NCBI GenBank assembly: GCA_038324555.1
Contig: JBBQIC010000003.1
Coordinates: 1-38,001, forward strand
Length of the DNA: 38,001 bases
Direction: 5' to 3'
Source of the DNA: Chloroflexia bacterium
Lineage (GTDB): Bacteria; Chloroflexota; Chloroflexia; QHBQ01; JADMIH01
Shown here in pieces: positions 2,463 to 33,435 of the stretch. Positions within the stretch are counted from its first letter, which is position 1. Each line of letters starts with the position of its first letter. The notes beneath the pieces are model-generated. The model worked only from the letters and a program-made list of their open reading frames with translations, was not told where the DNA came from and did no database searches. Made by a program: the position numbers and the translations under genes.

Positions 2463-2493
2463 CCGGACGGCGCGTAATTTGATAACTAAAACC

Positions 2494-5475
2494 ATGTCTG
2501 ATCTACCAGTTGGCACGGTCACCTTTCTATTTACTGATATAGAGGGGAGCACCACTCTGTGGGAGTTGCACCCCGAGGAGGCGCGCGCTGCCCTGGTCCG
2601 CCATGACGCGCTCATCGAAGACATGGTTAGCCAGCATGACGGTTTTGTGGTGCGACCACGCGGAGAGGGCGATAGCCGCTTTGCCGTTTTCGCCCGCGCC
2701 ACAGACGCCGCGAACGCGACCGTCGCCCTGCAAAAAGCCTTGTATGCCGAACAGTGGCCCACGCCCACTCCTATCAAAGTACGGATAGCTCTGCACACGG
2801 GAGAGGCAGACTTGCGCGGGGGGGACTACTATGGCAGCGCGGTCAACCGTTGCGCTCGGCTGCGCGCTGCTGCTCATGGCGGCCAATCCCTCATCTCCCA
2901 CGCTACCTACGACCTGGTGCGCGACGCCCTACCTTCGGGCGCGGAGATCCGAGACCTGGGCGAGCACCGTCTCAAGGACTTGCAACGACCGGAACACGTT
3001 TTCCAACTGTTGACCTCCGGCCTGCCTTCCAGTTTCCCACCTCTGAAGACGCTGGATAACCGCCCCAACAACTTACCTATGCAGCGCAGTTCTCTCATCG
3101 GTAGAGAGAAGGAGTTGGCTGCCGTCCAGGCGTTACTGCTGCGCAAAGATGTTGGACTGCTCACACTTACGGGGCCGGGCGGCGTCGGCAAGACACGCTT
3201 GTGCCTGCAAGTCGCCGCTGAAGTGATTGAGCACTTCGAGGACGGAGTGTTCTTCGTCGCCCTCACCCCGGTCAGCGATCCCGACCTGGTTGTACCCACA
3301 ATCGCACAAACCCTGGGGGTCAAGGAAACAGGAAATCAACCCTTACTTGGCACTCTCAAACAGCACTTACAAGACAAGCAAATGCTCCTGGCGCTTGATA
3401 ATTTCGAGCGAGTGCTGGAAGCTGCGCCTTCTATTTCCGAGCTTGTGGGGGTGGCGCCGCGCGTGAAGATACTGGTCACGAGCAGGGAAGCCTTGCATCT
3501 TTATAGTGAACATAGGTTTCCCGTCCCGCCGATGGCTCTCCCCGATAGCAAACACCTGCCAACGCTGGAAGCCATGTCCCAGTATGAAGCAGTACGACTG
3601 TTTATCGAGCGCGCCCAGTCCGTCAAACCCGACTTCATGGTCACAAACGACAATGCCCCTGCCGTTGCCGAAATATGCCATCGCCTGGACGGATTGCCCC
3701 TGGCGATAGAACTGGCCGCTGCTCGCATTACGATCCTCGCGCCGCAGGCGATGCTTGTGCGTTTGCAGAGCAGACTCAAGCTGCTTACGGGCGGCGCGCG
3801 CGATGTCCCGGCCCGTCAACAGACCCTCCGAGGCACATTCGAGTGGAGCCACGACATGCTCGACCCGGCAGAACAGGTCCTCTTCCGTAGGCTAGCGATC
3901 TTCGTGGGCAGTTTCTCGCTGGAGGCTGCGGAAGAGGTATGCAATCTAGGGATCGGGGATCAGGGATCAGGGATCAGGGGTAGAGAACTGATCCCTGATC
4001 CCCGACCCCCGATCCCTTTAGACATTGACATCCTGGACAGGGTAATGTCGCTGGCGGGCAAGAGCTTGCTGCGCGAGATAGAGGGAAATAGTGGGGAGAC
4101 CCGTTTCGGTATGTTGGAGACCATCCGAGAGTATGCACTTGAGATGCTGTCGGAAAGCGGAGAGGTCGAGGAACTGCGCAAGCAGCATATGGTCTTCTTC
4201 CTGAGGCTGCTGAAGATAAATGAAGACCTGCTGTTCGCTATTAACCTACCGGCGGTGCAACAATTCATTACGGAGTTCGACAACATACGCGCCGCAGTGG
4301 ACTTGCCGTTCGAGCAACGCGATCTCGGAAGAATAGCCGACTTAGCTTTCTCTTTGTATGGATTCTGGGATATTGGGGGTTATTTTAGCGAAGGCCGGGC
4401 AAAAATCGAAAGCGTACTGGCTACCCTACAAGGGAGCGGGGAGGGGAGTGGGGGCGCACAAACAGCCAGTGAGCAAATACGCGCCGGGTTGCTCTACCTG
4501 GCCGGGGCAATGGCCTTTTTGCAGGGTGATTATCCAGTCACTCGTTCTCGGCTGGAGGAAAGCGTGGCGATTTTGCGGCAGCATGGGGATCATGTCAACC
4601 TGGCCGGAGCACTGCATATCTTAGGAATGTCCGTCCATTTCCAAAATGACTACACGGTTGCCCGTTCACTGCTAGAGGAAAGTGTGGAGTTATTTCGTAG
4701 GATAGGGGTTAAGGGTGGTCTCGCCATAGCCCTTTTCTCTCTTGGAGACGTTGACCTTGCATTGGGCGATGATGCAGAAGCGCGAGCCAGGTATGAAGAA
4801 AGCCTGGCAACCTATCGGCAACTAGGTAATACTGGGGGCGATACTTTTCCGCTGACCAGCCTGGGCCGACTAGCCTGGCTGCAAGGCGATTATCCTACTG
4901 CGCGATCCCTCGTCGAAGAGAGCCTGGAGATAAGGCGTGCCATTGGAGGCTCACTGGGGGGCATCAACTGGGTGACTGCCATCTCGTTGGACAGCCTGAG
5001 CGATATAGCGCGATGTCAGGGCAACTACGCAGAGGCGGCGTCTCTCGCTAAGGAGGCTCTGCATATATACAGAGAGCTAGGTGACACCGGCGGCATAGCA
5101 TGGTCGCTTTCCAACCTGGCCTACGTCGCACGTTACGAAGAGGACTACGACCGAGCGGCGCAACTTTTCAAAGAGGCGCTGTCCTTGAGAAACGAGCAGG
5201 GCAGCAAAGGGGATATAGCTCTCTGCCTGGCGGGGGTGGCAGGAGTGAGCGGGTTGCAAGGGCAGCCGGAGAGGGCAGCGCGTCTTTATGGGGCTGCGGA
5301 AACTCTGTTCGAGTCAGTAGGCGTTCGCATGTCCCCTTATGACCGCGCCGACTACAATCAGAATCGTACCGCTGTGTGTTCTCAACTGGGCGACGACAAG
5401 TTCAAGGCCGAGCGGGAGGCGGGTCGAGCCATGAGTACGGATCAGGCTATCGCTTACGCTCTGAAGGAGGCTTAG
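2494..5475 (+). CDS. class III adenylate/guanylate cyclase - STAND (NB-ARC-like) ATPase - TPR protein
   Basis: [14 protein letters not shown] and [12 protein letters not shown] cyclase motifs; Walker A GPGGVGKT; LDNFE; [10 protein letters not shown]; C-terminal TPRs. Confidence 0.92.
3948..4017. repeat. GGGATCA heptamer palindrome, in-frame inside the CDS
   Basis: Same family as 454-544; translated as [23 protein letters not shown]. Confidence 0.9.
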
Positions 5476-7208: not shown

Positions 7209-7237
7209 TTGACAGTGGTCTCGCAATCGGATACACT
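7209..7237 (+). promoter_or_regulatory. sigma70-type promoter for the tlpA-rhodanese pair
   Basis: TTGACA-17 nt-TACACT. Confidence 0.65.
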
Positions 7238-7329: not shown

Positions 7330-8139
7330 ATGAGCAAAGCAGCATACAATAACCTTAAAGTCGTCCCTGGTGTTCCAAAAGACGAGGAAATTGAGGCATA
7401 TAGTGACGAAGCGGACGACCCATACGGGTATCTGTACGAAGACGAGCAAGCGGTAGAGAGGGTAGGGCTTTTCAGCACTCCTGCTCGCGCTATCACCCTC
7501 GGCTTTTCGATACTCCTGCTCCTCGGCGTGGTCGTCATGGCAGCATGGCTCCTCGGTCAGGCTGGTAAGAAGCCCGACACCGTCCCCGCGCTTGGCGGGA
7601 ATAATGGCGAGCAAGCGTACCATGCGACCTCCGCAGGCAGCTTGAAAGCAGTGCCCGACATCAACAACGCAAACGCCTCCTACACCAGCAAGCCTGCCGG
7701 CCTGTCGGAAGCCCCAAAGGTGGGTTCGCTTCCGCCTAACTTCCAATGGGCCGACCAGAAGACCGGCCAACCCGTCACCCTCGAGTCGTTGCGAGGCAAG
7801 CCCGTGCTCCTCAACTTCTGGGGTACGTGGTGCCCGCCGTGCCGCGCCGAGATGCCTGAAATGCAGAAGATATACGACCACGAGAAGGGCAATCTGACGT
7901 TCCTTGGCGTCTCAATGGGGCCGCGTGACGAGCCTCTGGGCGTCGCTCAGTTCGTCCAATTGGGGAATTATACCTGGGACTTCATTCACGATCCAAATAG
8001 CGACGTAATGACCCGCTATCAGGTTACAGGTATCCCAAGTTCGTACTTTATTGATAAAAGCGGCGTTATTCGCGCTATCCATGTTGGAGGCGCAGACGCT
8101 CAGATCATCGAAGACAATCTGAAAAAGGCCCAGCAATAG
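7330..8139 (+). CDS. membrane-anchored TlpA/ResA-family thiol-disulfide oxidoreductase
   Basis: Single TM helix; LRGKPVLLNFWGTWCPPCRAEMP; GIPSSYFID (cis-Pro loop). Confidence 0.92.
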   Translation: MSKAAYNNLKVVPGVPKDEEIEAYSDEADDPYGYLYEDEQAVERVGLFSTPARAITLGFSILLLLGVVVMAAWLLGQAGKKPDTVPALGGNNGEQAYHATSAGSLKAVPDINNANASYTSKPAGLSEAPKVGSLPPNFQWADQKTGQPVTLESLRGKPVLLNFWGTWCPPCRAEMPEMQKIYDHEKGNLTFLGVSMGPRDEPLGVAQFVQLGNYTWDFIHDPNSDVMTRYQVTGIPSSYFIDKSGVIRAIHVGGADAQIIEDNLKKAQQ

Positions 8140-8241
8140 GTTACTAACCAACCCGGCAGAGCGGCTACTGCCAGCCCATATGGCGACATCGCCAGCTAAT
8201 CTACATACATCCACCCAGACTGAGGAGGAAGCAATAATTTA

Positions 8242-9054
8242 ATGAGTCAACCCCCAAGAACCAGACCACCAGCTCGCCGTGTAGCTGGCGGCTCCCAACC
8301 ACCGCCACCGGCTCGCCGATCCAGCGCCCCGGCCCGGCGCGACCCGTTCCCATACATACTCGGCGGGATACTGACGGTCGTACTCGTTGGTATCGTTTTC
8401 GTAGTAGTATTTCTTCTAAGCCAAAACACTAATCCCAACGGCGTTGCCCAGGTGCCGCCGGTCGCAACAGGCACGAGCATTGGTGATCCTCCTGTCAAAC
8501 CAGGTGTAACCACGATTGATCCCAACGTGACGGCAGGACCGACCTCTGAGCCGCCCCCGCGTATGCCCCTGGCGGAGTTCAAAGCCCTGTACGATGATCC
8601 TGCGAAGCGCCCGCTCATCATAGACGTGCGCGCCAAGGAAGCCTTCGACGCGGGCCACATCAAGGGATCTCAGTCCTGGCCCGAAGCGGATATAGATGCT
8701 ACAAACGTAAAGCTGCCAAAAGACAAGCTCATCGTAGCCTACTGCCAATGACCGGCTGAGAATGAAAGCGCCCGTGTGGCGCAAAAGCTTCACGACACCT
8801 ACAAATTCAGCTACGACAAATTGAAGGTACTTCTCGGCGGTTGGAACACCTGGAAGCAGGAGAACGCCAAAGATGCGGCGGCATACCCGATAGAGATCAC
8901 CGCAGGATCGACCACTCCGGGAGCCAGCACTCCGGCCACCAAGGGTGGTGTACCTGCCACAATAGAGTTGCAGGCCGCCCCGGCCAATACAGTAGCGCCA
9001 AACGGCGCTGCTCCCCCGCCGGGCCTTGTGCCCATACCGGGTAAGACGCCGTAA
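8242..9054 (+). CDS. membrane-anchored rhodanese-domain protein with in-frame TGA (8749-8751), probable selenoprotein of 270 aa
   Basis: ORFs 8242-8751 and 8776-9054 share a frame. Read-through gives IIDVR..F..GHIKGS..IVAYCQ-U-PAENESARVA..LLGGWNTW, a complete rhodanese domain. Confidence 0.85.
8752..8792 (+). promoter_or_regulatory. putative bacterial SECIS element
   Basis: Stem GCGCC (8768-8772) / GGCGC (8778-8782) with loop CGTGT starting 21 nt after the UGA, G at loop position 2; TGAA/TTCA can extend the lower stem. Confidence 0.55.
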
Positions 9055-9075: not shown

Positions 9076-9114
9076 AACAAAAAATCTGCCCCATGTGCGG
9101 GCAGATTTTTTGTT
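9076..9114 (+). terminator. intrinsic terminator
   Basis: AAAAAATCTGCCC-loop-GGGCAGATTTTTT. Confidence 0.8.
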
Positions 9115-9231
9115 CCAATCTTAATCGTTGCTGGCAAGTACACGGAGCAGTCCCCCAAGCCTACGAACTACCCTCTACCGCAGTACGCCTATGGGCAGGC
9201 ACGGAGACCTGCCCATAGGCGCGAACTTAAG

Positions 9232-9402
9232 GGCAAACAAACCCTCTGACCCTTGTCATTCTGAACGGAGTGAAGAATCTCGTCGTGCTCCAGGATGCTT
9301 GGGATACGATAAATCAGGCATCTACGCGAGGGACGAGATTCTTCACTCCGTTCAGAATGACAAGGGTGAGTGCAATGACACGGGTCAGAGGGTTTGTTTG
9401 CC
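9232..9402. repeat. nested palindromic element (TGTCATTCTGA...GAAGAATC family)
   Basis: TGTCATTCTGAACGGAGTGAAGAATCT and its reverse complement inside outer GGCAAACAAACCCTCTGACCC arms; related to 32224-32374. Confidence 0.8.
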
Positions 9403-9477
9403 ATGCAGACCCCTTAAGTTTGCCCCTACGACTTTTCCTCTACTCCAAGTCTGAACACTTAACCCAATTACGCCGGG

Positions 9478-9689: not shown

Positions 9690-11576
9690 TTAATTACACC
9701 CTGGCTTGTTGCTTGCGGCGAGGCATACGATCTTGGAGATCTGCGCCCGCGTGGCGTTATTAGCTGGCTGGAACGTATGGTCGGCGTAGCCTCCGATTAT
9801 TACGTGGCATATCGCCGTCTCAACATACTTGTAGAACGGGTCAGTTGTAGGCACATCGCTGAAACTGGGGGCCTGCGGATTTCGGAGCGACCAACTATAC
9901 GCGACGATAGCTGCGTTGACTACTATTTTTGACAGCTGCCCCCTGGTCACGTTATCGCCTGGGCGAAACGTGTGATCGCTGTAACCGCTGATCAGACCGC
10001 CGTTGGAGGCAGTCTCTATGAAGCCATAGAATGGGTCCCTAACAGCAACGTCGGTGTAGTGCGGGCCGCCTTTGGTGTTGATGGGTATAGCGAAGGCCAG
10101 CACGACTATCTTACACATCTGGGCGCGCGTGGTATTGTTGCTGGGTTGGAACGTATGGTCGGCGTAACCGGAGATCGCGCCGTGGCAACTCAAGCATCGC
10201 ACCGAGTCGTAGAACCAATCTGCTGGGCGCACATCGCTGAAGCTTATAGGGCACTGGGTTGCGATGCCGGTCGGCGTGGATGTGGGTGTAAATGTCGGCC
10301 TGGTTGTTGGCGTAGGAGTGCTGGTCAGAGTGTCGCAGGGCAGGCCCAAATAGGACATAGTGAGGCTTTCCCCAGGGTCGCGGGAGGAGCCTACCGCCCA
10401 CAGGTCTCGGCCCGGCGAGACCCCAACCCCGTACAGGGTCGCCTGCCACGGCGTGGAAGGGCTGCGACCGACCGCCCATTGCGCGCCATTCCAATGTAGT
10501 GTCAGGGTCTGAAGCAGCACGCCCCGAGTGTAATAGCCCACAGCCCATATGTCGTTGTCGGCGACTGCGGAGATAGAATACAGCCTGGAGAAGCTGGACG
10601 GAGTAGGGCCTGCCACTTGCGCCCAATTGCGCAGAATTAGCGTATGAAGGCTGCTGCCATCGGAATAAGAGCCTACAGCCCACACATCGCCGCTGGGTGC
10701 AACTGCCACGTCGTAAAGGGTACTGGATATTGAGCCGGGGTCGGGAGTAGACACTCGAGTCCAGCTATGACCGTCCCAGCGTATGGCAACAGTATCCTGC
10801 GCGCCTCCCACAGCGTATACTCTGTTTGAGGACACCGCGGCGACCGCTGCAAGCAAATTGTTTCCGGCGCTGGGGTTGGGACTGGGTACAATAGACCACT
10901 GGGAGCCATTGTAGTGCATTGTAAGGCTGCTATATCCTGTGTCCTCTGTCAGGGTCGAACCCACCGCCCATATGTCAGCAGCAGCGATTGCCGTCACACC
11001 TGACAGATAGTTGCCTGATCCCGCGACGTTCGGGCTGAAGACGCTGGTCCAACTGCCGCCGTCCCAGTGCAATATCAGGGTTTGCGCCATGCTTGGAGAA
11101 CCCACAAAGTACTCGCCCACAGCCCAGATGTCATTGGCCGACAGAGCGGTTACGTCGTGTAGGGTGTTCGAGTCCGTGCCGACGTTGGGGCTGGCAACTT
11201 GCGCCCATTCCGAACCGTTCCAATGCAATATCAGGGTTTGCGTCACACCTACAGTGTCTACATACCCACCCACAACCCAAACATTGTTGGCCGATAGCGA
11301 CGCCACGCCTGTAAGAGTGTTGGCTCCCGTCTGTATATTGGGGCTGGGAATGACGCCCCATGCCCCAGGCACGCAGCCTCCGACAGGTGTGACAGTGGGG
11401 GTGCGGGTCGGTGATGTGCCGCCAAACGGATTGCGAGCCGGCAGGGTCCCCGCCGCAGCCTCCGACGGCAGCGCACCTACCCACATCAAAATGCCTATGC
11501 TACCCAGCAAGAGCATGACCAATAAGGCTAACGTGAATATAGCGCCCGCCATATAGTTGCGTCTTGTATTTATCAT
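9690..11576 (-). CDS. secreted beta-propeller-repeat (WxGxxW) protein with C-terminal SLH domains
   Basis: Start MINTRR after a GGAAGGA RBS, signal/TM segment, repeats L-x-x-V-x-A-x-S-x-N-D-I-W-A-V-G...HWNGxxW, T/P linker, three ISGY-x-D-x-TF-x-P...TRxQ SLH motifs. Confidence 0.85.
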   Translation of the reverse strand: MINTRRNYMAGAIFTLALLVMLLLGSIGILMWVGALPSEAAAGTLPARNPFGGTSPTRTPTVTPVGGCVPGAWGVIPSPNIQTGANTLTGVASLSANNVWVVGGYVDTVGVTQTLILHWNGSEWAQVASPNVGTDSNTLHDVTALSANDIWAVGEYFVGSPSMAQTLILHWDGGSWTSVFSPNVAGSGNYLSGVTAIAAADIWAVGSTLTEDTGYSSLTMHYNGSQWSIVPSPNPSAGNNLLAAVAAVSSNRVYAVGGAQDTVAIRWDGHSWTRVSTPDPGSISSTLYDVAVAPSGDVWAVGSYSDGSSLHTLILRNWAQVAGPTPSSFSRLYSISAVADNDIWAVGYYTRGVLLQTLTLHWNGAQWAVGRSPSTPWQATLYGVGVSPGRDLWAVGSSRDPGESLTMSYLGLPCDTLTSTPTPTTRPTFTPTSTPTGIATQCPISFSDVRPADWFYDSVRCLSCHGAISGYADHTFQPSNNTTRAQMCKIVVLAFAIPINTKGGPHYTDVAVRDPFYGFIETASNGGLISGYSDHTFRPGDNVTRGQLSKIVVNAAIVAYSWSLRNPQAPSFSDVPTTDPFYKYVETAICHVIIGGYADHTFQPANNATRAQISKIVCLAASNKPGCN

Positions 11577-11685
11577 TGCTATCCTTCCCCGCGATATGAA
11601 ATTCGTGCTGCTAGTATATGTTTGTATGGCCCATAGTGCAAGTGTATATCCAGGGCGGATGCAAAGTCGGGCATGGCTGCTAGTT

Positions 11686-11770
11686 GACGATGGACGATGG
11701 ACGATGGACGATGGACGATGGACGATGGACGATGGACGATTGAACAGGCATCGTCCATCGTCCATCGTCC
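11686..11770. repeat. GACGATG heptamer tandem array (8 copies) with 3 inverted copies
   Basis: Seen directly; lies between divergent genes. Confidence 0.9.
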
Positions 11771-11789
11771 ACAAAAAGGAAGCACCACT

Positions 11790-26864: not shown

Positions 26865-27458
26865 ATGGAAGGAATATGGCTGATCAGTTATATAGTGCTT
26901 TGGGCGCTGGTTATAGTGCTGATCCTATTGGTGATATTGCTCTATCGCCAGTTGGGGATAATGTATCTGGGCAGCGCGGAGGGCGTGTCGCGGGACGGCC
27001 TGACGCCGGGCGTTAAGGCCCCCGACTTTAGCTTGAAGGACCAGTATGACAATCCGCAAAGATTGAGCGACTATCGCGGTCGCCCTACAGTGCTGCTGTT
27101 CGGCTCTCCGCACTGTAGCCCCTGCCGCATCTTGCTACCCCAGCTGCACGACTGGTCTAAGGCACACCCCGAGGTCGGGGTGCTATGGCTCAACGCAGCC
27201 TCGGAGGAGGAGAGCCTCAAATTCGTATCCGATACAGGGTCCACACTACCCATCGCGCCCTATACCCCCCAGGAGAACCTCATGGACAAGTATAAAGTGC
27301 GCGTCACACCGTTCATGTTCCTGATTGACGAAAGCGGCGTCGTGAAGGTAAAGGGCCTGGTAAACACCAAAGCCGGTATGGACCTCTATTACAAAGAGTT
27401 CAAGGACATCAAATCCGGCAAACAACCTGAGCAGACTGTAGCGCAAGAGGCAAGCTAA
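26865..27458 (+). CDS. MauD-like membrane-anchored thioredoxin-fold protein
   Basis: N-terminal S-x-x-x-LW...L-x-RQLG-x-x-Y helix typical of MauD, G-x-x-APDF, F-x-SP-x-CSPC-x-x-LLP, TPF. Confidence 0.8.
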   Translation: MEGIWLISYIVLWALVIVLILLVILLYRQLGIMYLGSAEGVSRDGLTPGVKAPDFSLKDQYDNPQRLSDYRGRPTVLLFGSPHCSPCRILLPQLHDWSKAHPEVGVLWLNAASEEESLKFVSDTGSTLPIAPYTPQENLMDKYKVRVTPFMFLIDESGVVKVKGLVNTKAGMDLYYKEFKDIKSGKQPEQTVAQEAS

Positions 27459-32676: not shown

Positions 32677-33435
32677 ATGAACACTAATTTCAAGTCAGAA
32701 CTCTGGTCGCCAATCCAAAACTCAAAACTCAAAACCATGCCCTTGAACGAAGTGAAGGGTCAAAACTCAAAACTGGAAAGCCCCCAGGCTATCATCCCTT
32801 ACGTCGTGGAGAGCAGCAATAGGGGCGAGCGCGTATACGACATCTATTCTCGTCTGCTGCGGGACCGCATCATCTTCATCGGCACTCCCATAGACGACCA
32901 GGTAGCGAACGCCGTGGTAGCCCAGTTGCTCTTCCTTGAGCACGAGGACCCGGAGCGAGACATCCAAATATACATCCAGTCCCCTGGCGGCTCCATCACC
33001 GCAGGACTATCAATCTACGACACAATGCAATTCGTGCGCCCCGAAATAACCACTATCTGCATCGGCCTATCGGCTTCGATGGGCACGATCATCCTCTGCT
33101 CTGGCACCAAAGGCAAGCGTTATGCGCTGCCCAACTCCACTATCCACATGCACCCGGCGGGTATCGGCGGGATAGGTGGATATGCCCCCGATGTGGAAAT
33201 CCAGGCCCGCGAACTGCTCAGAATGCAGTCCAAGATTCGCACAATTATGGCGAACCACACGGGCCAGACGCTCGAAAAAGTCTCCCGCGACTTTGACCGC
33301 GATATGTACATGGACTCATACCAGGCCGTAGAGTATGGTATTATAGATGAGGTGGTAACGACCGCCAATGCTATCGCCACCAATGAGGTGTCGAGCGCCG
33401 ACAGCTTGATCAAGACCGACGGACTACGTGTATAA
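32677..33435 (+). CDS. clpP: ATP-dependent Clp protease proteolytic subunit
   Basis: [25 protein letters not shown] (catalytic Ser), HMHP, DRD. Confidence 0.97.

What the first reader, a model, noticed from the sequence alone, without database searches (positions are those of the whole stretch)
7330..9054. Hidden selenoprotein: membrane-anchored CxU rhodanese in an operon with a TlpA thioredoxin
Seen: ORFs 8242-8751 and 8776-9054 are one frame interrupted by a single TGA in the rhodanese active-site loop (IVAYC-Q-TGA-PAENESARVA), and the domain's closing LLGGWNTW motif lies after the TGA. A GCGCC-CGTGT-GGCGC hairpin has its loop 21 nt downstream. Known: many homologs have YCxCPxE..SA here, Cys/TGA alignment is the standard sign of selenocysteine, and bacterial SECIS elements lie just 3' of the UGA. 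Sec rhodaneses have been reported. Inference: the Arg-rich N-terminus and single TM helix place the Sec domain outside the membrane, where the adjacent WCPPC TlpA could reduce it, giving an extracytoplasmic Se-dependent redox or sulfur-transfer relay that standard annotation would split.
Basis: partly seen in the sequence, partly recalled or inferred. Interest (0 to 1): 0.82.

Follow-up and report, generated by a model that had tools for sequence, protein, structure and literature searches.

The report
Membrane-anchored Cys-x-Sec rhodanese selenoprotein
Two apparent short genes are really one gene for a membrane-tethered rhodanese enzyme that carries the rare amino acid selenocysteine in its active site, a type already catalogued but here in a mis-annotated soil-bacterial branch that is paired with a thioredoxin-like partner.

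Summary
ORFs 8242-8751 and 8776-9054 are one 270-codon frame broken only by TGA 8749-8751, inside a rhodanese domain.

The TGA very probably encodes selenocysteine:
- It sits in the same column in 36 of 36 distinct TGA-containing homologues, and 8 relatives have Cys there.
- A hairpin, GCGCC-CGUGU-GGCGC, fits the published bacterial SECIS model. It is held by invariant synonymous codons.
- The genome has selA, selC, a Sec-containing selD and a selB fragment.
- TGA is otherwise an ordinary stop.

CxU rhodanese selenoproteins are already catalogued (NF041203, "form 3"). This protein is the best match to that model, but at 67.6 bits against a cut-off of 115. It belongs to a divergent Chloroflexia branch with an N-terminal membrane anchor and seven paralogues in this MAG.

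A TlpA-like gene is adjacent in 16 of 20 loci, and two database proteins fuse the two domains. Of 120 public relatives, 117 are truncated at the TGA.

The TlpA-to-rhodanese redox relay is inferred, not shown. The substrate is unknown.

The parts
7209..7237 (+). Promoter-like site (TTGACA-17-TACACT) upstream of the tlpA-like gene
   Evidence: This is a consensus match only: 2 sites were found against 1.5 expected in shuffles.
7330..8139 (+). TlpA/ResA-like thiol:disulfide oxidoreductase, 269 aa, with one hydrophobic anchor (residues 57-75) and a WCPPC motif
   Evidence: AhpC-TSA E 8e-24, Redoxin E 4e-21; best NCBIfam hit is ResA at 99.4 bits (cut-off 170), with TlpA at 58.3 bits (cut-off 230). 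W-C-x-P-C and the cis-Pro are invariant in 22 homologues.
8224..8228 (+). GGAGG ribosome-binding site, 13 nt before ATG 8242
   Evidence: Read directly.
8242..9054 (+). Complete selenoprotein gene: 270 codons plus TAA, read through TGA 8749-8751
8356..8412 (+). Single transmembrane anchor (residues 39-57), preceded by an Arg-rich N-terminus
   Evidence: mean Kyte-Doolittle hydropathy 3.05; 8 K+R before the window and 0 in the 25 residues after it.
8572..8862 (+). Rhodanese homology domain (residues 111-207)
   Evidence: PF00581, E 2e-13. AlphaFold2 model with pLDDT 95.4. Foldseek TM-score about 0.75 to BH2092 and other rhodaneses.
8743..8751 (+). Active-site codons TGC-CAA-TGA, giving Cys168-Gln169-Sec170 (the CxU motif)
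   Evidence: Cys168 aligns with the active-site-loop Cys (YCWGPAC) of BH2092, taken as the canonical catalytic position. U or C occupies this column in relatives.
8768..8782 (+). SECIS-type hairpin GCGCC-CGUGU-GGCGC
   Evidence: Searches show conservation (96.1% of cells paired) and invariant synonymous codons. One search gives the published bSECIS constraints, all four of which are met.
9076..9114 (+). Intrinsic-terminator-like palindrome with flanking A and T runs, 22 nt after the stop codon
   Evidence: The scan lists it on both strands (9085-9101 on + and 9114-9076 on -).

Best explanation
**Shown or strongly supported**
- Window 8242-9054 is one gene for a 270-residue selenoprotein.
- TGA 8749-8751 is decoded as selenocysteine by SelB and tRNA-Sec. 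The signal is a small G+C-rich hairpin at 8768-8782 whose GU-containing loop starts 21 nt after the UGA.

**Predicted architecture**
- An Arg-rich cytoplasmic N-terminus.
- One membrane anchor.
- A low-complexity linker.
- A single rhodanese domain on the outer face of the membrane.
- A Pro/Thr/Ala-rich tail.

**Active site**
- Cys168 occupies the canonical rhodanese catalytic position.
- Sec170 is the third residue of the six-residue active-site loop, C-Q-U-P-A-E.

**Inferred mechanism**
- Cys168 and Sec170 cycle between a thiol/selenol pair and a selenenylsulfide, or carry a chalcogen adduct, while acting on an unknown extracytoplasmic substrate.
- The co-transcribed membrane-anchored TlpA/ResA-like WCPPC protein (7330-8139) returns the pair to the reduced state.
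- TlpA would in turn draw electrons through a CcdA/DsbD-type membrane protein. Such a protein lies next to some paralogous loci but not this one.

**Family placement**
- The protein belongs to a divergent, membrane-anchored Chloroflexia branch of the already catalogued CxU rhodanese selenoproteins.
For: **Sec decoding**
- TGA lies in one alignment column in 36 of 36 distinct TGA-containing sequences. Eight relatives have Cys there (YCDCP, YCECP, YCNCT), and 3 relatives lack both residues.
- 56 of 57 matches scoring at least 100 bits in 61 genomes carry a TGA.
- All 31 matches listed from a sample of 151 Chloroflexota genomes carry a TGA.
- Protein conservation continues after the TGA.

**SECIS**
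- The hairpin is at the same register in 35 of 36 sequences. The 36th (L056) has a different-sequence 7-bp hairpin shifted by 1 nt.
- Codons inside the hairpin are nearly fixed: Ser AGC 36/36, Ala GCC 35/35, Val GTG 28/29, Ala GCG 35/36. A flanking Ala uses 4 codons and a flanking Leu uses 5.
- 0 of 8 Cys forms has this hairpin.
- It meets the published constraints: a 5-nt loop (3-9 allowed) with G in second position followed by U, a 5-bp stem (4-16 allowed), 21-nt spacing (16-37 allowed) and -9.1 kcal/mol (limit -7.5).

**Machinery in this genome**
- selA scores 560.6 bits.
- tRNA-Sec scores 69.8 bits with anticodon TCA.
- selD scores 336 bits and has U in SCAGUAAK.
- A SelB winged-helix-3 domain, E 2.9e-21, lies at a contig end.
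- TGA ends 288 of 933 long open frames, so it is not reassigned.

**Topology**
- The charge bias is 8 K+R against 0 across the anchor.
- Relatives carry the same domain behind a lipoprotein-type signal peptide (L086), behind a signal peptide (P0087), or behind an N-terminal zf-HC2 anti-sigma domain plus one membrane helix (P0048).

**Coupling to TlpA**
- tlpA is immediately upstream on the same strand in 15 of 20 loci and adjacent in a 16th.
- Own-genome paralogues are arranged tlpA-rhd-rhd and tlpA-tlpA-rhd.
- Two database proteins fuse TlpA and rhodanese after a single anchor (P0048, P0057).
- A DsbD_2 membrane protein (E 5e-15) follows the rhodanese in 3 loci.
- No terminator-like site on the + strand lies in the 102-nt gap between the two genes; the only + strand site listed between the promoter-like site and the final palindrome lies inside the rhodanese gene (8367-8394). 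The promoter-like site lies before tlpA and the terminator-like site after the rhodanese.
Against: - No direct evidence of selenium incorporation or of expression is available.
- SelB is present only as a 140-residue C-terminal fragment, because the contig ends there.
- The hairpin shows almost no covariation because it is nearly invariant. One pair has a double change, and 11 of 500 shuffles reach the observed score.
- Folded alone, the window sequence prefers an alternative pairing and is not unusually stable: z -1.52.
- Local folding energies of Sec and Cys forms overlap: means -9.47 and -6.6 kcal/mol, with Cys forms ranging from -2.5 to -11.0.
- TlpA's own topology is ambiguous by charge: 2 K+R in the last 15 residues before its anchor and 2 K+R in the 25 after it.
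- 4 of 20 loci, two own-genome paralogues (C35, C17) and 10 of 10 loci from other Chloroflexota lineages have no tlpA within the DNA fetched.
- This locus has no ccdA/dsbD neighbour.
- The acidic loop (E173, E175) is unlike thiosulfate-type rhodaneses, and the substrate is unknown.
Confidence: 0.8

Rival explanations
1. The TGA is a true stop. On this view the locus is a nonsense pseudogene or a split gene that yields a 169-residue truncated rhodanese, with or without a separate 92-residue product from GTG 8776.
For: - Table 11 gives two ORFs.
- 117 of 120 database entries are called this way.
- There is no expression data.
Against: - The same TGA column recurs in 36 of 36 distinct sequences from many independent assemblies, and the protein stays strongly conserved after it.
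- Synonymous codons are fixed in the hairpin.
- Cys occupies the column in relatives.
- The Sec machinery is largely present, with selB seen only as a fragment, and selD is itself a selenoprotein.
- The truncated product would lack the last strand and helix of the domain.
Confidence: 0.02
2. The TGA is read through as Trp or another standard residue, either by an alternative genetic code or by near-cognate suppression, and not as Sec.
For: Two JGI gene calls (P0002, P0003) translate this codon as W.
Against: - TGA ends 288 of 933 long open frames in this genome.
- P0003 also runs on past the normal stop, which marks a code-4-type calling artefact.
- The only tRNA found with a TCA anticodon is tRNA-Sec.
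- Relatives have Cys in the column, never Trp.
- A SECIS-type hairpin is conserved.
Confidence: 0.02
3. It is a genuine Sec protein, but the chemistry is not a TlpA-recycled selenenylsulfide redox cycle. The Cys/Sec pair might instead carry sulfane sulfur or selenium (a persulfide or perselenide, as in sulfurtransferases). Alternatively it might bind or reduce a metal or chalcogen oxyanion, with TlpA serving only in maturation or in a parallel role.
For: - The rhodanese fold and the canonical catalytic Cys are retained.
- Relatives score weakly against PspE, GlpE and the chromate-resistance rhodanese ChrE.
- The same CxU domain occurs without tlpA in other lineages, fused to cation/proton-antiporter-like membrane proteins or as a small soluble protein.
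- The loop is acidic.
Against: - The tight tlpA synteny and the two fusion proteins point to direct coupling in this subfamily.
- CxU and CxxU motifs in other catalogued selenoproteins belong mostly to families homologous to thiol oxidoreductases (passages).

The two readings are not mutually exclusive.
Confidence: 0.3
4. The Sec-rhodanese domain faces the cytoplasm. On this view the anchor is inverted, or the hydrophobic stretch is not membrane-spanning.
For: - No topology predictor or experiment was available.
- The TlpA anchor's charge bias is ambiguous.
Against: - There are 8 K+R against 0 across the rhodanese anchor.
- Homologous domains sit behind signal peptides, a lipobox, or a zf-HC2 anti-sigma domain plus one helix.
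- From general knowledge, characterised TlpA/ResA/CcmG proteins act outside the membrane.
Confidence: 0.07

Closest known systems
NF041203 rhodanese_LYCAU, 'rhodanese-related (seleno)protein'. [quoted passage not shown] The first prediction is credited there to Zhang & Gladyshev 2005.
   Same: - It is the best NCBIfam match (E 7.6e-19).
- It is a single rhodanese domain.
- Sec sits two residues after the catalytic Cys (CxU).
- It is known only from prediction, and no function has been determined.
   Different: - The score is 67.6 bits against the curated cut-off of 115. All 9 related Chloroflexota forms tested also fall below it, at 52.7-99.9 bits. None of 151 phylum genomes reaches it.
- The model is 126 positions long. 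This protein has 270 residues, with a membrane anchor, a linker and a tail.
- The motif is AYCQU rather than LYCAU.
- This subfamily has a TlpA partner.
TsoB, a rhodanese/DsbD fusion-like selenoprotein (NF045694, rhodanese 'form 5', UxxxxU)
   Same: It combines a Sec-bearing rhodanese domain with DsbD-type and thioredoxin-like modules. Those are the same three module types seen here as separate or partly fused genes. In support, the rhodanese matches TsoB positions 50-154 and the TlpA-like protein matches positions 472-547.
   Different: - The scores are only 15.4 and 19 bits against a cut-off of 805.
- TsoB is a single 572-position protein with two Sec residues in a different motif.
The CcdA/DsbD to TlpA/ResA/CcmG extracytoplasmic reducing pathway. 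The pathway itself is recalled from general knowledge.
   Same: - The upstream gene has the thioredoxin fold, WCPPC and a single anchor.
- A DsbD_2 membrane protein accompanies three paralogous or orthologous loci.
   Different: - The known clients are apocytochrome c, Sco and CoxB-type proteins, not a selenoprotein rhodanese.
- The scores are below the ResA, TlpA and DsbE cut-offs.
BH2092 of Bacillus halodurans (PDB 3o3w, 3nhv), a structural-genomics rhodanese
   Same: It is the closest solved chain by sequence (E 3.9e-7) and among the closest by fold (TM-score about 0.76, rmsd 2.2 Å). The Cys of its loop (YCWGPAC) aligns with Cys168.
   Different: - It has Gly where Sec170 lies.
- It is soluble.
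- It contains no selenium, and its function is unknown.
The periplasmic single-Cys rhodaneses PspE and Sud (recalled from general knowledge)
   Same: They set a precedent for a rhodanese domain working outside the cytoplasmic membrane.
   Different: - They have one Cys, no Sec and basic loops.
- Relatives score 26-37 bits against PspE, whose cut-off is 102.

Membership tests
Bacterial selenoprotein gene (Sec-UGA) | An in-frame UGA aligned with Cys in homologues (a Cys/Sec pair), with conservation on both sides | tested here: met
   U in 36 of 36 distinct TGA forms and Cys in 8 relatives at the same column. The domain stays conserved after the TGA.
Bacterial selenoprotein gene (Sec-UGA) | A bSECIS element just 3' of the UGA: loop of 3-9 nt with G in its first two positions, stem of 4-16 bp, spacing of 16-37 nt, and energy of -7.5 kcal/mol or lower | tested here: met
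   The constraints were read in PMC13188914. This hairpin has a 5-nt loop CGUGU, a 5-bp stem, 21-nt spacing and -9.1 kcal/mol. It is conserved in 35 of 36 sequences with fixed synonymous codons. The program bSECISearch itself was not run.
Bacterial selenoprotein gene (Sec-UGA) | selA, selB, selC and selD present in the genome | tested here: met
   selA scores 560.6 bits. selC scores 69.8 bits. selD scores 336 bits and contains Sec. For selB only the C-terminal winged-helix fragment was found, E 2.9e-21, at a contig end. The MAG is 79.8% complete.
Bacterial selenoprotein gene (Sec-UGA) | Selenium is actually incorporated at the UGA | not testable with these tools
   This needs 75Se labelling or mass spectrometry.
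NF041203 rhodanese_LYCAU (CxU rhodanese selenoprotein, form 3) | Whole-protein score at or above the curated equivalog cut-off of 115 bits | tested here: not met
   67.6 bits; 62.7 bits for this locus, and all 7 own-genome paralogues fall below the cut-off.
NF041203 rhodanese_LYCAU (CxU rhodanese selenoprotein, form 3) | A Cys-x-Sec motif in the rhodanese active-site loop | tested here: met
   Searches show C168-Q-U170. The review table lists CxU for this family.
Rhodanese homology domain (PF00581) | A Pfam score above the gathering threshold, the rhodanese fold, and Cys at the start of the active-site loop | tested here: met
   51.1 bits against 22.2; model pLDDT 95.4 and TM-score about 0.75 to solved rhodaneses. 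Cys168 aligns with the loop Cys of BH2092.
TlpA/ResA/DsbE thiol:disulfide oxidoreductases (upstream gene) | A thioredoxin fold with a CxxC motif and the cis-Pro loop | tested here: met
   AhpC-TSA and Redoxin matches. W47, C48, P50, C51 and P116 are invariant in 22 sequences.
TlpA/ResA/DsbE thiol:disulfide oxidoreductases (upstream gene) | A score above a curated NCBIfam cut-off for ResA, TlpA or DsbE | tested here: not met
   ResA 99.4 bits against 170, TlpA 58.3 against 230, DsbE 66.5 against 123.15.
TlpA/ResA/DsbE thiol:disulfide oxidoreductases (upstream gene) | The catalytic domain lies outside the cytoplasmic membrane | tested here: inconclusive
   there is one anchor but the charge is balanced, 2 against 2. 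Fusion proteins place TlpA and the rhodanese on the same side.
TsoB rhodanese/DsbD fusion selenoprotein (NF045694) | A score at or above 805 bits, and the UxxxxU motif | tested here: not met
   15.4 bits, and the motif here is CxU.

The most novel reading that the evidence does not exclude
Soil Chloroflexia run a selenium-dependent redox pathway on the outer face of their cytoplasmic membrane. Electrons would pass from a CcdA/DsbD_2 membrane protein to TlpA and then to a tethered Cys-x-Sec rhodanese. The module has multiplied to at least seven copies per genome and has fused with TlpA or anti-sigma domains in some lineages. That pattern suggests a family of extracytoplasmic selenoenzymes, and possibly sensors, acting on an envelope or environmental substrate not yet linked to selenoproteins. 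Candidates are sulfane sulfur, oxidised thiols, and chalcogen or metal species.
Probability: 0.3. Interest if true: 0.7.

Novelty: new variant of a known kind. Interest (0 to 1): 0.5.

Why it matters
- **Annotation.** A whole branch of selenoproteins is systematically mis-annotated. Of 120 public protein clusters, 117 stop at the Sec codon and 2 read it as Trp. The curated NCBI model for the nearest family does not reach any of them. Selenoproteome counts for soil Chloroflexota are therefore underestimates.
- **Biology.** A membrane-tethered, probably extracytoplasmic Sec enzyme has a dedicated thioredoxin-fold partner and is present in seven copies in one genome. This gives a testable model for how selenium chemistry is used in the cell envelope of widespread soil bacteria. 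It also gives the long-predicted but uncharacterised CxU rhodanese family a first plausible redox partner.
- **Limits.** This is not a new kind of element. The recoding mechanism and the motif are both already known.

Tried and rejected
**Analyses that led nowhere or were weak**
- **Single-sequence folding.** The 91-nt fold is unremarkable (z -1.52). The minimum-energy structure pairs CGUG..CACG instead of the GCGCC stem. That alternative depends on Lys-Leu-His-Asp codons that vary among homologues, so I rejected it as the conserved element.
- **Covariation test.** It is uninformative because the stem is nearly invariant: one double change, and 11 of 500 shuffles reach the observed score.
- **NF041203 and TsoB membership.** Both were rejected on the curated cut-offs.
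- **Alternative code.** TGA read as W, as in the two JGI calls, was rejected on stop-codon usage.
- **SelB N-terminus.** It was not found. The best TIGR00475 match (C197, 191 bits) sits in a 410-codon frame beside a weak tRNA-like match. I take it to be EF-Tu, but I did not test that.
- **Expression.** No RNA holder was listed: 3 DNA runs of one study.
- **Laid contigs.** These are DNA contigs only. No other letter is listed at 8749-8751 among the 40 of 55 difference rows shown; 15 rows were not shown. One run may be the sample of origin, so this adds little.
- **Model geometry.** The S-Se distance could not be measured, because model coordinates are not exposed to the script box.
- **TlpA topology.** The charge-bias test is inconclusive.
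- **Literature.**
  - Two searches were run. I read passages only, through find, of PMC13188914, PMC9312934, PMC5029168, PMC13326102 and PMC1794560.
  - The two selenoproteome reviews searched for it (PMC13188914, PMC9312934) have no occurrence of 'Chloroflex'.
  - None of the passages returned describes a TlpA-linked or membrane-anchored CxU rhodanese.
  - I did not read whole texts, and supplements are closed. The BSepDB tables or the supplements of Zhang-group papers may already list these genes.

**Unpublished genomes**
- G017 (L023) and G023 (L029) contribute 2 of the 36 Sec sequences, 2 of the 16 tlpA-linked loci, and rows.
- G022 and G033 contribute rows.
- G202 (L084) contributes one row.
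- Every conclusion holds without them: 34 of 34 Sec sequences and 14 of 18 tlpA-linked loci.
- L023 and L029 were left out of alignments A2 and A3. This left 42 of the 44 available domain sequences in A2.
Full report
**1. The observation**

The window holds ATG 8242, preceded by GGAGG at 8224-8228. The frame reaches TAA 9052-9054 and is interrupted once, by TGA 8749-8751. Reading that codon as U gives a 270-residue protein...KDKLIVAYCQUPAENESARVAQKLHDTYKFSYDKLKVLLGGWNTW....

Pfam's Rhodanese model (E 2e-13) covers residues 111-207, so the domain straddles the TGA. The hairpin GCGCC (8768-8772), CGTGT, GGCGC (8778-8782) is present. Its loop starts 21 nt after the TGA.

The N-terminus has 8 Arg/Lys and 1 acidic residue before a very hydrophobic window (residues 39-57). 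No Arg/Lys occurs in the following 25 residues. The upstream ORF 7330-8139 is an AhpC-TSA/Redoxin protein with WCPPC.

**2. Is the TGA a selenocysteine codon?**

I searched 61 genomes of the same class with the read-through protein.
- 56 of the 57 matches scoring at least 100 bits contain a TGA.
- The remaining match ends at query residue 151 at a contig edge.
- The window's own MAG holds seven paralogues, on C3, C268 (two), C334, C115, C35 and C17. All read YC[Q/D/A]U.

In an alignment of 44 domain sequences, U falls in one column.
- Eight relatives have Cys there (YCDCP, YCECP, YCNCT).
- Three relatives lack both residues (YGDATRPE, YGDSARPE).
- One relative reads UxU.

Sequence after the TGA is as well conserved as sequence before it. 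In a separate sample of 151 Chloroflexota genomes, all 31 listed matches to the nearest NCBIfam model carry a TGA.

The genome has the decoding apparatus.
- selA scores 560.6 bits.
- tRNA-Sec scores 69.8 bits with anticodon TCA, found by both Infernal and ARAGORN.
- selD scores 336 bits and itself has U in SCAGUAAK.
- A SelB winged-helix-3 domain (E 2.9e-21) lies in a 140-residue fragment cut off by the end of contig C22.

The N-terminal part of SelB was not found. The MAG is 79.8% complete. TGA ends 288 of 933 long open frames, so it is a normal stop elsewhere in this genome.

**3. The SECIS element**

All 36 distinct Sec forms have a small hairpin at the same place.
- In 35 it is GCGCC-N5-GGCGC or a close variant.
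- 96.1% of cells are paired, against 21-60% when the 3' partner is slid by 1-3 columns.
- The 36th (L056) has a 7-bp hairpin of different sequence, shifted by one base.

The stem is nearly invariant, so covariation is almost absent. The stronger evidence is at synonymous sites.
- Inside the hairpin: Ser is AGC in 36 of 36, Ala GCC in 35 of 35, Val GTG in 28 of 29, and Ala GCG in 35 of 36.
- Outside it: an Ala four codons upstream uses four codons, and a Leu three codons downstream uses five.

None of the 8 Cys forms has the hairpin at this register. Where the peptide is the same (SASVA), the last Ala is GCC instead of GCG, which breaks the stem.

The element meets the four constraints of the published bSECIS model, as quoted in PMC13188914 (passage read). 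It has a 5-nt loop with G in second position followed by U, a 5-bp stem, 21-nt spacing, and -9.1 kcal/mol.

Three points count against it.
- Folded alone, the window's 91 nt are unremarkable (z -1.52).
- The minimum-energy fold uses a competing pairing that is not conserved.
- The energy ranges of Sec and Cys forms overlap.

**4. What the protein is**

An AlphaFold2 model of residues 101-215 was built from 42 sequences and has pLDDT 95.4. It is a standard single rhodanese domain, with TM-score about 0.75 to BH2092 (3o3w, 3nhv), 3tp9 and others.

Cys168 aligns with the loop Cys of BH2092 (YCWGPAC), the canonical catalytic position, and Sec170 aligns with a Gly two residues later. The helix after the loop starts at model residue 74. 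The six-residue loop is therefore C-Q-U-P-A-E, with Sec at its third position.

The charge bias puts the N-terminus inside and the domain outside. Relatives support this. The same domain follows a lipoprotein-type signal peptide (L086), a signal peptide plus another domain (P0087), or a zf-HC2 anti-sigma domain plus one helix (P0048).

**5. The TlpA partner**

Among 20 loci from the genus and order, a tlpA homologue lies immediately upstream on the same strand in 15 and is adjacent in one more. Four have none within about 1.5-1.8 kb.

- **Own-genome paralogues.** They are arranged tlpA-rhd-rhd (C268) and tlpA-tlpA-rhd (C334). C35 and C17 have no tlpA nearby.
- **Fusion proteins.** Two database proteins are natural fusions, and both are truncated at YCQ by the gene caller:
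  - P0057: anchor, TlpA, linker, rhodanese.
  - P0048: zf-HC2, anchor, TlpA, linker, rhodanese.
- **DsbD_2 neighbour.** A DsbD_2 membrane protein (PF13386, E 5e-15) follows the rhodanese in C334, C115 and L021.
- **TlpA conservation.** W-C-x-P-C and the cis-Pro are invariant in 22 TlpA homologues.
- **Operon signals in the window.** A promoter-like site precedes tlpA and a terminator-like palindrome follows the rhodanese. No + strand terminator-like site lies in the gap between the two genes.

These facts support functional coupling, with both domains on the same side of the membrane. They do not show electron transfer. In ten loci from other Chloroflexota lineages the CxU domain occurs without tlpA, fused to antiporter-like membrane proteins or as a small soluble protein. 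The partnership is therefore specific to this subfamily.

**6. Comparison with what is known**

The 2026 review of prokaryotic selenoproteomes lists five rhodanese selenoprotein forms. Form 3 is 'CxU, NF041203', credited to Zhang & Gladyshev 2005 (passages read). The 2022 review lists the same family as 'COG0607 form 2, CxU'.

NF041203 ('rhodanese_LYCAU') is this protein's best NCBIfam match, but at 67.6 bits against a cut-off of 115. Nine related forms score 52.7-99.9 bits, and no genome of 151 in the phylum reaches the cut-off. The protein shares the defining motif but fails the curated membership test. It also differs in length and architecture.

Public annotation confirms the gap. Of 120 listed relatives, 117 end at YCQ or YCS, 2 read the codon as W and 1 is partial. 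Their names are 'hypothetical protein' or 'rhodanese-like domain-containing protein' from Chloroflexi/Chloroflexia MAGs.

TsoB (NF045694) combines rhodanese, DsbD and thioredoxin-like modules in one selenoprotein, which makes it a conceptual parallel. The scores are negligible, however.

**7. Verdict**

This is a genuine, mis-annotated selenoprotein gene. I put confidence in Sec decoding at about 0.93. It is a divergent, membrane-anchored member of the known CxU rhodanese kind.

The relay from TlpA, and from CcdA-type proteins, is well motivated but untested. The substrate is unknown.

The novelty is moderate. It rests on the new architecture, the partner and the paralogue expansion, not on a new principle.

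Noticed in passing
L051 (G040:C56, about 32777-33085): One relative reads YUTUAKEEYSARAA. Both the canonical Cys and the +2 position are TGA (UxU), followed by the same GCGCC-CGGGC-GGCGC hairpin. It is a possible double-Sec rhodanese served by one SECIS. That genome is only 51% complete.
   Followed up: partly
L080, L083, L087, L088 (also L052, L053): In other Chloroflexota the CxU rhodanese domain (YCTUP.E.TSARVA) is the C-terminal domain of 530-620-codon frames. Their upstream part looks like a polytopic cation/proton-antiporter-type membrane protein. The membrane part was not scanned against Pfam.
   Followed up: no
G000 contigs C333:2373-3197 and C22:2-385: There are two nearly identical Sec-containing selD copies, differing by a few residues. 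The second is cut by a contig end, and the selB fragment lies at the other end of the same contig. They could be a duplicate gene, strain heterogeneity or an assembly split.
   Followed up: partly
window 9128-9454: ORFs on both strands translate to near-identical peptides (…PSDPCHSERSEESR… and …DEILHSVQNDKG…). This implies an inverted repeat between the rhodanese terminator and tRNA-Pro. It is possibly a small palindromic repeat element.
   Followed up: no
window 2479-5475: This is a 998-residue protein with an adenylate/guanylate cyclase domain, an NB-ARC/AAA ATPase and TPR repeats, a STAND-type signalling ATPase.
   Followed up: no
window 9690-11774 (minus strand): This is a 694-residue protein with three C-terminal SLH domains and repeated WAVG-type segments. 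It is probably a cell-surface protein.
   Followed up: no
window 26865-27458: A second, shorter AhpC-TSA/Redoxin protein lies in the window. It is 31% identical to the TlpA-like domain.
   Followed up: no
G000 contigs C163:1105-2188 and C220:764-1688: Two further tlpA homologues are each followed by a gene that matches only the N-terminal anchor and linker part of the rhodanese protein (query residues 19-109 and 27-101), without a TGA. What domain follows was not examined.
   Followed up: no
G000, a contig other than the window (ARAGORN row c[32219,32295]): ARAGORN reports a tRNA of undetermined identity with a four-base anticodon (tgca). The contig was not identified.
   Followed up: no
window 7788-7857 and 8703-8824: In the three metagenome runs, many short contigs from other organisms align only to these two stretches, the WCPPC region and the CxU-plus-hairpin region. 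This fits unusually strong nucleotide-level conservation there.
   Followed up: no
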